DNA of 50,552 nucleotides. It comes from Escherichia phage ADB-2. Below, one piece after another: positions 10,129 to 46,465 of the stretch. How positions within the stretch are numbered: position 1 is the stretch's first letter; each line of letters starts with the position of its first letter. A program made the translations under genes and the position numbers. A model generated the notes under the pieces. It was not told the origin of the DNA. It did not search any database and saw only the letters and a program-made list of their open reading frames with translations. Where the stretch lies: the sequence record NC_019725.1. One strand, written 5' to 3'.

Positions 10129-10147
10129 TAGCACGAATTACTAAAAC
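10127..10147 (+). promoter_or_regulatory. conserved intergenic element (copy 12)
   Basis: AATAGCACGAATTACTAAAAC then hairpin AAGGGCAT...ATGCCCTT. Confidence 0.6.
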
Positions 10148-10211: not shown

Positions 10212-10823
10212 ATGGATAAAATCACAATTTGGGGCCAGACAATCAACCTGTTTCTCGGTACGCGCCGCGTAGCAATCTTTGACTTTGATGGAACACTTAG
10301 CGATGGATCTGGTCGACTTCACCTGCTACCTACAAAGGATTTGCACTTAACTGAAAGCTGGTCCGAGTTTAACCGCGCGGCAATATTTGACAACCCTATC
10401 CAAAGCACGATCGATGTGATGAACTCTATGTTTGCCGCTGGATATCATGTAATAATTTTAACCGGGCGAAGTGATGAGGTGCGTTACGCATCTGAGTTAT
10501 GGCTTAAGCATCACGGCGCTCGATATGATTACCTGATTATGCGACCGCATACCGACAACCGCAAAGACACGGTAATGAAAGAAGAGGCAGTGCGCGCTAT
10601 CGGCATTGATAACATTCTTGCGGCATGGGATGACTCACCGCAAATTATTCCATTATTCCGCTCGCTTGGAATAACAACTTACGCTGTAGTTGACTATGGC
10701 GATAACGTTCACAATCATTTAAAATCTCACGGGGTAGATGAGGTTTGCAATCATGAACCATCTGAGCCGCTACCGCCATTTGGTGAGAAAATTTGCATTA
10801 AGTGCAAGGAGTTATTGAAGTGA
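10212..10823 (+). CDS. HAD-superfamily phosphatase (polynucleotide 3'-phosphatase or nucleotidase-like)
   Basis: AIFDFDGTLSDG (HAD motif I DxDGT), ILTGR (motif II), downstream K and WDDS (motif IV). Confidence 0.6.
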   Translation: MDKITIWGQTINLFLGTRRVAIFDFDGTLSDGSGRLHLLPTKDLHLTESWSEFNRAAIFDNPIQSTIDVMNSMFAAGYHVIILTGRSDEVRYASELWLKHHGARYDYLIMRPHTDNRKDTVMKEEAVRAIGIDNILAAWDDSPQIIPLFRSLGITTYAVVDYGDNVHNHLKSHGVDEVCNHEPSEPLPPFGEKICIKCKELLK

Positions 10824-10931
10824 ACCTATACGAATTTATTGCAGCGCATCCGGTATTAACGGTTATCATTCTGCTAATCATCAATCACACTATCATCAAT
10901 GTAGCAAAATTATTTTTAGGGAGATGCTAAC

Positions 10932-11504
10932 ATGAAAACAGCTATCATTTTAAACGGTGCACCTGGTGCTGGAAAGGACACTATCGGATGCATCCTGGCT
11001 GACACTTACGATCATGTAGCTTTGCGCAGCTTCAAAGCACCAATGTTTGAGATTGCTCGGGCAATCTTGGGTGAAACTAACTACGAGTATTTCATGTTCT
11101 TGTATGAGGACCGTAGTTACAAAGAAGAGCCAGCATCAATCCTGAACGGTAAAAGCCCGCGCCAGTTTATGATCTGGATTAGCGAGGAAGTCATCAAGCC
11201 GCAGTTCGGAAATCGATTCTTCGGTATGCGAGCGGAAAGCAAGGTGAAAGAGTCGCACTCACTTTCGGTATTTACTGACGGGGGATTCAAAGACGAGATC
11301 TTGCAAATGATTGAAGGAGATATCCAGGTCAAGCTATGCCGCATACATCGCAACGGTTGCAACTTCGATAACGACAGTCGCGATTATATCTATCTGGACG
11401 ATATGATCGGGGTTAACGGTTATCAGGAATGTGACTTCTTCTCTGTCGAAGGTCATCCAGAAATTACCGCTCAGCACATAGCCGCTACGTTCATCAACAA
11501 ATAG
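10932..11504 (+). CDS. P-loop nucleotide/nucleoside-monophosphate kinase-like protein
   Basis: N-terminal Walker A ILNGAPGAGKDT, reminiscent of phage dNMP kinases; adjacent to HAD phosphatase. Confidence 0.55.
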   Translation: MKTAIILNGAPGAGKDTIGCILADTYDHVALRSFKAPMFEIARAILGETNYEYFMFLYEDRSYKEEPASILNGKSPRQFMIWISEEVIKPQFGNRFFGMRAESKVKESHSLSVFTDGGFKDEILQMIEGDIQVKLCRIHRNGCNFDNDSRDYIYLDDMIGVNGYQECDFFSVEGHPEITAQHIAATFINK

Positions 11505-11520
11505 CACGAATTGCTAAAAC
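11499..11520 (+). promoter_or_regulatory. conserved intergenic element (copy 13)
   Basis: AAATAGCACGAATTGCTAAAAC; TAG = stop of kinase gene. Confidence 0.6.
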
Positions 11521-33461: not shown

Positions 33462-33766
33462 ATGGCGTACGGTATATCAACTTGGGACGCAAATGGCGTT
33501 TATAATAACTATGGAATTAAGCCCGTTACGGTTGTTGGTTGGAACTTCTTGTCAGCAGGCCAGAATTCAGCATCGTTCAGCTATCAAGTGCCTCCTGGTA
33601 TGCATGTGACTACGTTATAAGCCTTGACGATGGCGCCATTAGTGGGCCTGGCAGGAAAATTATTGCTAGCGGTAATACGATAACAGTAACGCCAACAAAC
33701 TCACCTGGGCCAAACGTGTACCCATCATCAAACTGCTACTTAATAGCATATCTGGAGAATGATTAA
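33462..33766 (+). CDS. hypothetical tail-associated protein (frame disrupted ~33608), paralog of next gene
   Basis: MAYGISTWDANG... N-terminus similar to MSYGAFIDVNGN... of 33766..34455; two ORF pieces offset by -1. Confidence 0.4.
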
Positions 33767-34455
33767 TGTCATACGGTGCTTTTATAGATGTAAACGGAAA
33801 CCCATTCATAACCCCGTTATCCACGCCATTCGCCTTATATGCGAGAGGGGAAATTCAATCAGTAAATGTTAGTGGTTCACAGGTTGCGGAGAGATATGTT
33901 CGGATACCTACAGGTGTTCCGGTTATAGCTTTTTGCAAAACAACAAACACGCAGCAGGGGACCGCGCTTTCAGCCTTTACTTTCAGAAGCGGACCCAATG
34001 TTGGAACTGTTTATATAAGGGGGACAAATCCAGCAAACCAATCATACACGCTAACATATTACATATTTGCCATATTTGAGCAGTCACTACCGAGCTGGGG
34101 TATGGCAATATGGGATGCGTCAGGAAAGCTAGTGCTGACAAATGAGACAAAAGTCCTTAGTGATTTGGTTACAATCGGCACTCCTGGGTACGCTGGCGGT
34201 GGGCTAAACATAGACGCAACACTCAGCGGAAGCTACGCAGTTGTCCCAACTATACTTGGCAACTATCAAGTTGTTATCGGCAGATTGCCAACTGGGCAAC
34301 CCATAATAGGAAACTCGACAGCAGGCAGTTCATGCAGATACAACGGGAGCACAACGAGAATAAATGCAGCAGCAACCACTGCGGCAGGTCAGATAATGAA
34401 CACTACGAATAATGGAAATATTATAACAGCAATAAAAACGGCAGCATACGACTAA
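33766..34455 (+). CDS. hypothetical tail-associated protein (possible receptor-binding accessory)
   Basis: 229 aa, Gly/Thr/Asn-rich; last gene of tail block. Confidence 0.45.
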   Translation: MSYGAFIDVNGNPFITPLSTPFALYARGEIQSVNVSGSQVAERYVRIPTGVPVIAFCKTTNTQQGTALSAFTFRSGPNVGTVYIRGTNPANQSYTLTYYIFAIFEQSLPSWGMAIWDASGKLVLTNETKVLSDLVTIGTPGYAGGGLNIDATLSGSYAVVPTILGNYQVVIGRLPTGQPIIGNSTAGSSCRYNGSTTRINAAATTAAGQIMNTTNNGNIITAIKTAAYD

Positions 34456-45313: not shown

Positions 45314-46465
45314 ATGTCACAAGCTAAAATCACTACCGAGCAACTTATCGAAGAGCGCATGAGCGGCCTTACACTTCGCGAGATCGCGGAAAAGTACGGT
45401 ATGCACATCCGCACAGTTGAAGCGCGTCACGCCAAACTTGCAAAAGAAGGTCACTTCCACGGTAACGAGCATGTTGCTAAGAACGTACCGGAAGGATTCA
45501 TGGTAAAAGGCACATCAACGATGATTCGCGGCGATGGGACCGAGGTAGTGCGATGGGTTAAGACCGATCAGGACCGTGAGAAGATTGCGGCAATGATGGA
45601 AGCAGCGCGTATTGCATTCTGTGAAGACTTGCCGAGAGCAAAACCAACTGAGCTACTCACATCGCAAGGGCTTACAACCGCTATTGGCAAGCTGGCACTC
45701 TACCCGGTGTTCGATCTTCACATTGGCGCGCTTGCTCACAAGCATGAATGCGGAGAGAACTACTCTACAGACGTAGCGGAAAAAGTGCTGAATGACTTCT
45801 TTAGCTACGCGATCGATATTGCCCCGAGCGCAGAGAAGGCTGTTCTGTTAATCGGCGGCGACTTCCTTCACTCAGACGGTCTTGATGCTGTTACCCCGGC
45901 AAGCGGTCACGTTCTGGATCAGGATTCACGATATGCGAAATTGGTGCATGTGGCTATTCGATCGGTGCGACGAGCTATCGACAAAATGCTGACTAAACAC
46001 AAAGAGGTCGAAGTTCAGGTTATCGAAGGGAACCACGACCAGGCCGGAATGATTTGGCTACGCGCTGCAATGGCTGCATACTATGAGGACGAGCCGCGAG
46101 TATTCGTTGACGTTAGTCCTATGATTCTGCATAAGACCCGCTGGGGAAATACCTTGTTGGGATACACTCACGGTCACACGATGAAAAAGGCAGACACGCG
46201 ACTTGCAGCGATGGCAGCAGACTTCCGTGCAGACTTCGGTGAAAGCAAATACGTGTATACTCACAGTGGACACTGGCACCATCAAACAATCACAGAACAC
46301 TCGTTAGGTATTGATGAGGTTCACGGGCAGTTAGGCGCGAAAGACGCATATGCTGCGCGCGGAGGGTGGAGATCATATCGCCAGGCTGCGGTAATCATTT
46401 ACGATAAGCAGTTTGGTGAAATCGGTCGATTCATCTATCGTCCAGAAATGACAGGATCGCACTAA
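45314..46465 (+). CDS. calcineurin-like metallophosphoesterase with N-terminal HTH-like segment
   Basis: 383 aa; GDFLHSD, GNHD, GHTH/GHWHH metal-binding motifs; N-terminal LTLREIAEKYGMHIRTVEARHAKL looks like a helix-turn-helix. Confidence 0.65.
   Translation: MSQAKITTEQLIEERMSGLTLREIAEKYGMHIRTVEARHAKLAKEGHFHGNEHVAKNVPEGFMVKGTSTMIRGDGTEVVRWVKTDQDREKIAAMMEAARIAFCEDLPRAKPTELLTSQGLTTAIGKLALYPVFDLHIGALAHKHECGENYSTDVAEKVLNDFFSYAIDIAPSAEKAVLLIGGDFLHSDGLDAVTPASGHVLDQDSRYAKLVHVAIRSVRRAIDKMLTKHKEVEVQVIEGNHDQAGMIWLRAAMAAYYEDEPRVFVDVSPMILHKTRWGNTLLGYTHGHTMKKADTRLAAMAADFRADFGESKYVYTHSGHWHHQTITEHSLGIDEVHGQLGAKDAYAARGGWRSYRQAAVIIYDKQFGEIGRFIYRPEMTGSH

What the first reader, a model, noticed from the sequence alone, without database searches (positions are those of the whole stretch)
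10212..11504. Adjacent HAD phosphatase and P-loop kinase genes: split polynucleotide kinase-phosphatase or nucleotide salvage pair
10212..10823 carries HAD motifs (FDFDGTL, LTGR, WDDS) and 10932..11504 begins with Walker A GAPGAGKDT. Together they resemble the two halves of T4-type polynucleotide kinase/3'-phosphatase, which repairs tRNAs cut by host anticodon nucleases, but no RNA ligase is visible in the window. Alternatively they form a dNMP kinase plus nucleotidase pair for nucleotide pool manipulation. A 36-codon hydrophobic ORF (10820-10931) sits between them.
Basis: partly seen in the sequence, partly recalled or inferred. Interest (0 to 1): 0.5.

Follow-up and report, generated by a model that had tools for sequence, protein, structure and literature searches.

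The report
Phage 3'-phosphatase and dNMP kinase cassette
A T1-like phage carries a linked phosphatase gene and nucleotide-kinase gene that most likely help turn degraded host DNA into building blocks for phage DNA; both families are already known, so the finding is fairly ordinary apart from how tightly the two genes are coupled.

Summary
The window is a T1-like phage (Drexlerviridae, Tunavirus). It has a 203-aa HAD phosphatase (10212-10823), a genuine 36-aa membrane peptide (10820-10930, not 10931) and a 190-aa P-loop kinase (10932-11504).

No RNA ligase is present, so "split Pnkp for tRNA repair" is not supported. The two genes are nonetheless functionally coupled. The order is phosphatase then kinase in 58 of 80 related loci, with overlapping stop and start codons in about 30. 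Natural phosphatase-kinase fusion proteins exist. A metallophosphoesterase annotated "DNA repair exonuclease" recurs beside them in three phage lineages.

Best reading: a nucleotide-scavenging module of nuclease, 3'-phosphatase and dNMP kinase. The phosphatase substrate remains inferred.

The parts
10129..10147 (+). Upstream copy of the 19-nt repeated motif TAGCACGAATTACTAAAAC (5-bp hairpin TAGCA/TAcTA region). It marks the left boundary of the cassette, 65 nt before the HAD ATG.
   Evidence: 11 copies in the window against 0.05 expected; the 17-mer is exactly conserved in 51 of 89 fetched loci.
10212..10823 (+). Stand-alone T4-Pnkp-type HAD (DxDxT) phosphatase, 203 aa. Annotated in relatives as 'polynucleotide kinase', although it has no kinase domain.
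10281..10295 (+). HAD motif I, D24-F-D26-G-T28 (nucleophile and general acid/base). It aligns with T4 Pnkp D165-V-D167-G-T169.
   Evidence: alignment. Residue roles from PMC3592404.
10743..10820 (+). Optional 26-aa C-terminal CxH-x14-CxxC tail of the HAD protein. It looks like a zinc knuckle, is modelled at low confidence, is absent from phage T1 itself, and is present once or twice in some relatives.
   Evidence: alignment; pLDDT about 44-69 over this stretch.
10820..10930 (+). 36-aa single-pass hydrophobic peptide gene. GTG start overlaps the HAD stop, and AAGGAG lies 8 nt upstream.
   Evidence: annotated as bas13_0075 in LeonhardEuler; codon-position bias of substitutions; hydropathy.
10932..11504 (+). 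gp1/DNK-family deoxynucleoside monophosphate kinase, 190 aa. Walker A is G9-APGAGKDT17; the LID is R140-x-G-x2-F-x2-DSR150.
11502..11520 (+). Downstream copy of the 19-nt motif TAGCACGAATTGCTAAAAC. It overlaps the kinase stop codon and marks the right boundary of the cassette.
45314..46465 (+). Unlinked third member of the wider module: a calcineurin-like metallophosphoesterase ('DNA repair exonuclease', phrog_704) with an N-terminal HTH-like segment. In many relatives it lies immediately upstream of the HAD-kinase pair.
   Evidence: tblastn, 44% identity to Kagunavirus TE3_019 and LIMEzero ORF27; phrog_704, 1.3e-156. DxH / GD / GNHD / HGH / GHWHH motifs; contiguity with HAD and kinase in 28 of 80 loci.

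Best explanation
The two genes form a conserved, co-translated phage cassette. It pairs a stand-alone Pnkp-type 3'-phosphatase with a gp1/DNK-type dNMP kinase. It is not a split polynucleotide kinase-phosphatase.

Shown: family membership of both proteins, their conserved order, their translational coupling, and natural fusion proteins.

Shown elsewhere for orthologues: the kinase converts dNMPs to dNDPs.

Inferred: together with the phage's Mre11/SbcD-like metallophosphoesterase, the cassette feeds phage DNA synthesis from degraded host DNA. The nuclease releases 5'-dNMPs. The HAD enzyme removes 3'-phosphates from DNA ends, oligonucleotides or 3'-phosphorylated nucleotides that would otherwise block or escape that flow. 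The kinase makes dNDPs, which host Ndk converts to dNTPs. The 36-aa membrane peptide between the genes is a lineage-specific insert with unknown function.
For: Identity of the phosphatase.

Identity of the kinase. The annotators of phage fTaEco03 reported HHpred 99.55% to T4 deoxynucleotide kinase.

Experimental anchor: preprint 10.1101/2024.12.20.629578. Phage DNKs phosphorylate dAMP, dGMP, dCMP and dTMP. A K15A mutant is inactive. The DNKs of the Drexlerviridae phages KarlJaspers and vB_KpnS-VAC2 trigger Kongming. KarlJaspers has HAD bas06_0071 upstream of P-loop protein bas06_0076, which is 46% identical to the window kinase.

Coupling: HAD lies upstream on the same strand in 58 of 80 loci, and the genes overlap or abut in about 30. 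Fusion proteins P0216 (403 aa) and P0234 (461 aa) exist. P0216 was found on contigs from two samples.

Metallophosphoesterase (MPE) association: the MPE is contiguous with the pair in 28 of 80 loci. MPE-kinase without HAD occurs in 6. The arrangement also occurs in Kagunavirus and Aeromonas phage CF7, and directly after the fusion gene.

Other nucleotide context: in LIMEzero the HAD is coupled to a MazG-like dATP/dGTP diphosphohydrolase.

Biology: T1 and TLS degrade the host chromosome and reuse its nucleotides, and the enzymes responsible are unassigned (PMC11447400). [quoted passage not shown]
Against: No substrate of the HAD enzyme was tested, and no T1 nuclease is known to leave 3'-phosphates.

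In the proposed pathway the phosphatase and kinase steps are not consecutive, so fusion is not obviously required.

Two dNMP-contacting residues of gp1 are replaced in this subfamily (K37 to F39, R177 to G118), so its acceptor preferences may differ from gp1.

Deleting dnk in phage Rao1 had no apparent fitness cost, so the module is dispensable under laboratory conditions.

The MPE gave no significant Pfam or PDB sequence hit. Its nuclease role rests on motifs and the PHROG name.

I did not verify that the KarlJaspers DNK tested in the preprint is bas06_0076. It is simply the only candidate in the half of that genome I inspected (24-51.5 kb).
Confidence: 0.55

Rival explanations
1. Split Pnkp-like end-healing enzyme. 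The HAD removes 3'-phosphates or 2',3'-cyclic phosphates, and the gp1-like kinase has been recruited to phosphorylate 5'-OH ends. This would repair nicked phage DNA (sealed by host LigA) or cleaved tRNA.
For: The HAD is a bona fide Pnkp-type phosphatase. HAD-kinase fusions exist in the same domain order as mammalian PNKP (domain order from memory). In podovirus-like contigs the kinase sits between an MPE and an ATP-dependent DNA ligase. That is the same set of activities as bacterial Pnkp (from memory). E. coli has no DNA 5'-kinase of its own (from memory).
Confidence: 0.12
2. dNMP kinase plus a Dmp-like 5'-nucleotidase. The HAD would dephosphorylate particular 5'-(d)NMPs, such as dAMP, dIMP or dUMP. 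This would shape nucleotide pools or blunt nucleotide-based immunity such as Kongming, which the phage's own DNK triggers.
Against: The HAD belongs to the Pnkp 3'-phosphatase clade by sequence and fold. The Kongming preprint reports that having a DNK correlates with sensitivity, and that Rao1 needs T5 Dmp supplied in trans for protection. I could not confirm that Rao1 carries this HAD, nor that the HAD-carrying Drexlerviridae in that panel are sensitive. A kinase and a 5'-nucleotidase fused in one polypeptide would form a futile cycle.
Confidence: 0.15
3. The two genes have unrelated functions and are neighbours only because both are early genes.
For: In TLS and several other Drexlerviridae, 0.4-1.5 kb of small genes separate them. 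The kinase occurs without the HAD in 22 of 80 loci, and the HAD occurs without the kinase in LIMEzero and JK004.
Against: The order and strand are the same in all 58 loci that have both genes. ATGA-type overlaps occur in about 30. Two independent fusion proteins exist. The same pairing recurs in Drexlerviridae, Guernseyvirinae and Autographiviridae.
Confidence: 0.08

Closest known systems
T4 polynucleotide kinase-phosphatase (Pnkp, pseT), C-terminal DxDxT phosphatase domain; also Pnkp1 of the bacterial Pnkp1-Rnl-Hen1 system
   Different: It is stand-alone, with no Pnk-type kinase domain and no partner RNA ligase. It has about 14 extra, nearly invariant residues after motif I (RLHLLPTKDLHLTESWSEFN). 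This copy also has an optional Cys/His tail. Its partner kinase is of the gp1 type and lies downstream, or C-terminal in the fusions, which is the opposite order to T4 Pnkp.
T4 gp1 deoxynucleotide kinase (PDB 1DEK/1DEL) and phage DNKs (T5 Dnk, Rao1 gp58) that trigger the Kongming defence
   Same: Same PHROG (phrog_139). The profile and fold match run the full length. The P-loop is GKDT. Equivalents of gp1 R132, M135, W152, D175, E181, R197 and R68 are conserved. Drexlerviridae orthologues behave as DNKs in the Kongming assays.
   Different: It is shorter (190 against 241 aa) and lacks a roughly 36-residue insert. gp1 K37, R177 and H206 are replaced by F39, G118 and R150. Identity to gp1 is only 12%. 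No Pfam or NCBIfam model reaches significance.
T4 gp46/gp47 (Mre11/Rad50-type nuclease) plus gp1 pathway for reusing host DNA; T5 Dmp/Dnk pair
   Same: The logic matches: a metallophosphoesterase nuclease is associated with a dNMP kinase in lytic phages that destroy the host chromosome (from memory for T4).
   Different: Here the three activities form one compact cassette in many relatives. The cassette includes a 3'-phosphatase rather than a 5'-nucleotidase. No Rad50-like partner was seen. In this window the nuclease gene is unlinked.
Mammalian/fission-yeast PNKP (phosphatase-kinase order) and yeast Tpp1 (stand-alone DNA 3'-phosphatase)
   Same: The phosphatase-then-kinase order matches the natural fusions. 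There is precedent for a stand-alone DNA 3'-phosphatase of this HAD clade (from memory).
   Different: The PNKP kinase domain belongs to the Pnk clade, not the gp1 clade. No homology beyond the HAD core was tested here.

Membership tests
Pnkp-type HAD 3'-phosphatase (Pfam PF25109 HAD_PNKP; DxDxT acylphosphatase) | Profile score above the curated threshold | tested here: met
   61 bits against a cut-off of 27.6, E=1.8e-16, profile positions 3-141 of 143.
Pnkp-type HAD 3'-phosphatase (Pfam PF25109 HAD_PNKP; DxDxT acylphosphatase) | DxDxT nucleophile and acid-base, motif II Ser/Thr, motif III Lys, motif IV Asp-Asp (Mg2+) | tested here: met
   D24, D26, T28, T84, K123, D140 and D141 align with T4 D165, D167, T169, S211, K258, D277 and D278. 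They are invariant or nearly so in 25 homologues. Residue roles from PMC3592404.
Pnkp-type HAD 3'-phosphatase (Pfam PF25109 HAD_PNKP; DxDxT acylphosphatase) | Fold closest to solved Pnkp phosphatase domains | tested here: met
Pnkp-type HAD 3'-phosphatase (Pfam PF25109 HAD_PNKP; DxDxT acylphosphatase) | Hydrolysis of polynucleotide or nucleotide 3'-phosphate (and 2',3'-cyclic phosphate) | not testable with these tools
   Needs enzyme assays.
Bifunctional T4-type Pnkp / RNA-repair system (kinase + phosphatase + ligase) | Pnk-clade P-loop 5'-OH kinase, as a domain or an adjacent gene | tested here: not met
Bifunctional T4-type Pnkp / RNA-repair system (kinase + phosphatase + ligase) | Conserved general-base Asp (and Arg) just after strand beta2 of the kinase | tested here: not met
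   the residues after beta2 are S33-F34-K35, with no conserved acidic residue there. The roles of T4 D35/R38 are recalled from memory.
Bifunctional T4-type Pnkp / RNA-repair system (kinase + phosphatase + ligase) | Partner RNA ligase encoded by the same genome | tested here: not met
   no ligase in the fully annotated relative EF3-1; the window is collinear with EF3-1 apart from eight unmatched stretches of 183-1399 bp; in the two largest of these (1399 bp and 1059 bp) the ORFs are a 229-aa ORF and a tail-fibre allele.
gp1/DNK dNMP kinase family (phrog_139; PDB 1DEK) | Family profile match over the same span as T4 gp1 | tested here: met
   E=1e-46, profile positions 82-260. T4 gp1 E=1.8e-65, profile positions 83-261; hhalign covers 175 columns, probability 91%.
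gp1/DNK dNMP kinase family (phrog_139; PDB 1DEK) | Two-lobed fold of 1DEK with a GKDT P-loop | tested here: met
gp1/DNK dNMP kinase family (phrog_139; PDB 1DEK) | dNMP phosphate, sugar and base contacts of gp1 (K37, R68, R132, R177, M135, W152, D175, E181) | tested here: inconclusive
   Kept: R77 (=R132, 155/155), R61 (=R68, 140/155), M80, F97, D116, E122. Replaced: K37 by F39 and R177 by G118. Possible substitutes are K35 and R150. The alignment around the gp1 insert is ambiguous.
gp1/DNK dNMP kinase family (phrog_139; PDB 1DEK) | ATP-dependent dNMP to dNDP activity | not testable with these tools
   The support is indirect. Preprint 10.1101/2024.12.20.629578 shows activity for Rao1 DNK and Kongming triggering by the KarlJaspers and VAC2 DNKs. 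The KarlJaspers orthologue is 46% identical.
Mre11/SbcD-like metallophosphoesterase nuclease (window 45314-46465) | Calcineurin-like motif set DxH, GD, GNH(D/E), H, GHxH | tested here: met
   D134-x-H136, GGDFLHSD, GNHD, H286-G-H288 and GHWHH in the phrog_704 members.
Mre11/SbcD-like metallophosphoesterase nuclease (window 45314-46465) | Significant match to a curated nuclease family or a solved nuclease structure | tested here: not met
   no Pfam hit for the window protein; no PDB sequence or profile hit. Only the PHROG name 'DNA repair exonuclease' applies.

The most novel reading that the evidence does not exclude
The metallophosphoesterase, Pnkp-type 3'-phosphatase and gp1-type kinase form a previously unrecognised three-enzyme machine, sometimes literally fused. 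It would work as a dedicated host-DNA scavenging pipeline, which would account for the long-unassigned host-chromosome degradation and reuse function of T1-like phages. Alternatively, it would be a non-canonical end-healing system in which a dNMP-kinase fold acts on nucleic-acid 5' ends.
Probability: 0.2. Interest if true: 0.55.

Novelty: new member of a known kind. Interest (0 to 1): 0.3.

Why it matters
The work corrects a widespread database label. The gene annotated 'polynucleotide kinase' in T1-like phages is a phosphatase-only protein, and its neighbour is the real kinase, which acts on dNMPs.

It also shows that the two genes are coupled across several phage families, often together with a metallophosphoesterase, and are sometimes fused. 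That gives a concrete and testable candidate for how T1-type phages recycle host DNA.

The kinase family is the trigger of the Kongming immune system. Knowing its constant companions could help explain how such phages manage nucleotide pools under immune pressure.

Beyond that, both enzymes belong to well-known families.

Tried and rejected
1. Sequence searches of the kinase against Pfam, NCBIfam and PDB, single sequence and profile, returned only P-loop noise. Structure and PHROG or profile-profile methods were needed.

2. I looked for an RNA ligase in the relative's full annotation, in the collinearity comparison and in the window-specific segments. None was found, so tRNA repair was rejected.

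3. I tested whether LIMEzero ORF31, downstream of its HAD, is the kinase. It is not. It is a MazG-like dATP/dGTP diphosphohydrolase.

4. The CRISPRi-ART fitness data for PTXU04 did not help. The paper mentions neither these kinases nor Drexlerviridae, and PTXU04's gene content did not look T1-like.

5. The 'phage phosphatases' that counter aRES are Macro-domain enzymes, unrelated to this HAD.

6. I could not establish the taxonomy or sequence of phage Rao1. The link to the biochemically assayed DNK therefore rests on KarlJaspers and VAC2.

7. PDB profile search of the metallophosphoesterase found nothing.

8. The sigma-70 promoter and terminator scan around the cassette was no better than shuffled sequence.

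9. The structure of a fusion protein or a complex could not be predicted under the tool restrictions and caps.

Full report
**What is there.** The window is a near-complete T1-like phage genome. The 2.6 kb around the finding is 90-94% identical to Tunavirus and other Drexlerviridae phages such as IME167, JMPW1, LeonhardEuler and ISF002. The whole window is collinear with Escherichia phage EF3-1 apart from eight unmatched stretches of 183-1399 bp. On the + strand lie a 203-aa ORF (10212-10823), a 36-aa ORF (10820-10930) and a 190-aa ORF (10932-11504). The only correction is that the small ORF ends at 10930, not 10931. Each gene has a Shine-Dalgarno sequence: GAGGA before the HAD gene, AAGGAG 8 nt before the GTG of the small ORF, and GGGAG before the kinase.

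The small ORF is a real gene. Among 10 distinct relatives, 13 of 22 variable sites fall at third codon positions and most changes are synonymous. Its hydropathy indicates a transmembrane helix. It is annotated in LeonhardEuler.

**The phosphatase.** The first protein passes Pfam HAD_PNKP (61 bits against a 27.6 cut-off) and phrog_415. phmmer aligns it only with the phosphatase domains of Pnkp1 (4xrp) and T4 Pnkp (1ltq, 5uj0). In that alignment D24, D26, T28, T84, R86, D119, K123, D140 and D141 correspond to T4 D165, D167, T169, S211, R213, D254, K258, D277 and D278. The roles of D165, D167, S211, K258 and D278 are described in PMC3592404. These residues are invariant or nearly so in 25 homologues.

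A 155-sequence family profile aligns with gp1 over 175 columns, but with the T4 Pnk kinase domain over only 26 P-loop columns.

I used the gp1 active-site table in PMC10653934 to compare contact residues. The family keeps equivalents of R132 (R77, 155/155), M135 (M80), W152 (F97), D175 (D116), E181 (E122), R197 (R140) and R68 (R61, 140/155). It replaces K37, R177 and H206 with F39, G118 and R150. It is thus a distinct subfamily of the gp1/DNK superfamily. The family is large, with 4381 clusters at 50% identity and 1421 phage records.

Experimental support comes from the Kongming preprint (10.1101/2024.12.20.629578). Phage DNKs phosphorylate dAMP, dGMP, dCMP and dTMP, and a K15A mutant is dead. 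The DNKs of KarlJaspers and vB_KpnS-VAC2, both Drexlerviridae, trigger the system. KarlJaspers encodes a HAD (bas06_0071) upstream of a P-loop protein (bas06_0076). These are 57% and 46% identical to the window's proteins. That bas06_0076 is the tested DNK is my inference.

**Are the two genes linked in function?** Yes. I examined 80 viral contigs that encode a kinase homologue. In 58 of them the HAD gene lies upstream on the same strand. In about 30 the HAD stop overlaps or abuts the kinase start, typically as ATGA. In the window's close kin the 108-nt gap holds the membrane peptide. T1 proper has a 164-aa insert at that position. Other relatives have 0.4-1.5 kb of small genes, often hydrophobic ones.

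Two natural fusion proteins have an N-terminal HAD and a C-terminal kinase: P0216 (403 aa) and P0234 (461 aa). P0216 was found on contigs from two different samples.

A third partner recurs: a calcineurin-like metallophosphoesterase (MPE) annotated 'DNA repair exonuclease' (phrog_704 or phrog_221). Among the 80 loci the arrangements are as follows:
- MPE-HAD-kinase contiguous in 28.
- MPE-kinase without HAD in 6.
- HAD-kinase without an MPE in the flank in 30.
- Kinase alone in 16.

The trio also occurs in Kagunavirus fTaEco03, where its annotators noted HHpred 99.55% to T4 deoxynucleotide kinase. It occurs in Aeromonas phage CF7 of the Autographiviridae. It also lies directly downstream of the fusion gene. 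The window's own copy is unlinked, at 45314-46465, and carries the DxH / GD / GNHD / HGH / GHxH motif set. The KanT1 paper already noted that 'PNK' and 'dNMP kinase' often follow the exonuclease gene in Drexlerviridae, and suggested a role in nucleotide supply. Many of the 80 loci come from one metagenome and are related, so these counts are not independent events. The recurrence across three phage families and the fusions carry more weight.

**Mechanism.** T1 and TLS are known to degrade the host chromosome and reuse its nucleotides, and the enzymes responsible are unassigned (PMC11447400). The most economical model is a scavenging module. The MPE nuclease releases 5'-dNMPs. The Pnkp-type HAD removes 3'-phosphates from ends, oligonucleotides or nucleotides. 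The DNK makes dNDPs for host Ndk.

Family assignments, gene linkage and fusions are shown here. Kinase chemistry is shown by others for orthologues. The phosphatase substrate, the nuclease activity and the pathway itself are inferred.

The tRNA-repair reading is unlikely for three reasons. The kinase is not of the Pnk type. No RNA ligase is encoded. Host RtcB uses, rather than suffers from, 3'-phosphate ends (from memory).

A Dmp-like 5'-nucleotidase role, possibly anti-Kongming, cannot be excluded. It fits poorly with the clade assignment and with the reported link between carrying a DNK and sensitivity to Kongming. I could not confirm that sensitivity for HAD-carrying phages.

**Novelty and score.** Both proteins belong to known families and are already annotated, one of them misleadingly. 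The kinase family has recent experimental characterisation. What this analysis adds is the evidence that the pair is a coupled, sometimes fused unit, and part of an MPE-HAD-kinase triad spread over several phage families. That is a useful refinement and a testable hypothesis for T1 host-DNA recycling, but it is not a surprise for specialists.

Noticed in passing
window 841-, 3418-, 5418+, 5743+, 7323+, 8049+, 9609+, 10129+, 11502+, 39395+, 44469+: A 19-nt motif, TAGCACGAATTGCTAAAAC (5-bp hairpin TAGCA/TGCTA followed by AAAAC), occurs 11 times against 0.05 expected. Most copies sit at gene ends in the early region, and two of them bracket the HAD-kinase cassette. The 17-mer is exactly conserved in 51 of 89 fetched loci, including phages whose kinase is only about 45% identical. 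It is therefore more conserved than the genes around it. It could be a regulatory, RNA-processing or module-boundary recombination element.
   Followed up: partly
window 10743-10820 (HAD residues 178-203): The HAD has an optional C-terminal CxH-x14-CxxC tail that looks like a zinc knuckle. It is absent from T1 (176 aa), present in LeonhardEuler and others, and duplicated in P0134. It is modelled at low confidence.
   Followed up: partly
window 10820-10930; L014, L016, L021, L029-L033 between HAD and kinase: The slot between the HAD and kinase genes repeatedly holds small hydrophobic ORFs. Examples are the 36-aa peptide here and unrelated 60-62-aa peptides starting MIWLLVFLVVFF... or MLTAFLIFLVIV... 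elsewhere. Their function is unknown.
   Followed up: partly
window 45314-46465: The 'DNA repair exonuclease' metallophosphoesterase (phrog_704) has an N-terminal segment of about 50 aa that looks like a helix-turn-helix. It gives no Pfam or PDB sequence hit despite a complete calcineurin-like motif set.
   Followed up: partly
L006 6424-6918 and L007 7504-7998 (T1-type relatives): A 164-aa ORF is inserted between the HAD and kinase genes in place of the membrane peptide. It is probably the HNH homing endonuclease drawn between PNK and dNMP kinase in the KanT1 paper's figure.
   Followed up: no
L086 (Pantoea phage LIMEzero) 4986-6022: In this phage the HAD phosphatase is translationally coupled (4-nt overlap) to a MazG-like dATP/dGTP diphosphohydrolase (PF18909, E=8.7e-32) instead of the kinase. 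It still lies downstream of the metallophosphoesterase.
   Followed up: partly
L038 4635-7363; L064 5632-8770: In podovirus-like contigs the kinase homologue lies between a phrog_221 metallophosphoesterase and an ATP-dependent DNA ligase, with no HAD. This is the same set of activities as bacterial Pnkp.
   Followed up: partly
The cause is either sequencing errors or a decaying copy.
   Followed up: no
window 33766-34455 (+): A 229-aa ORF lies in a 1.4-kb segment with no counterpart in EF3-1, where a minus-strand membrane protein and the cor lipoprotein sit. It was not characterised.
   Followed up: no
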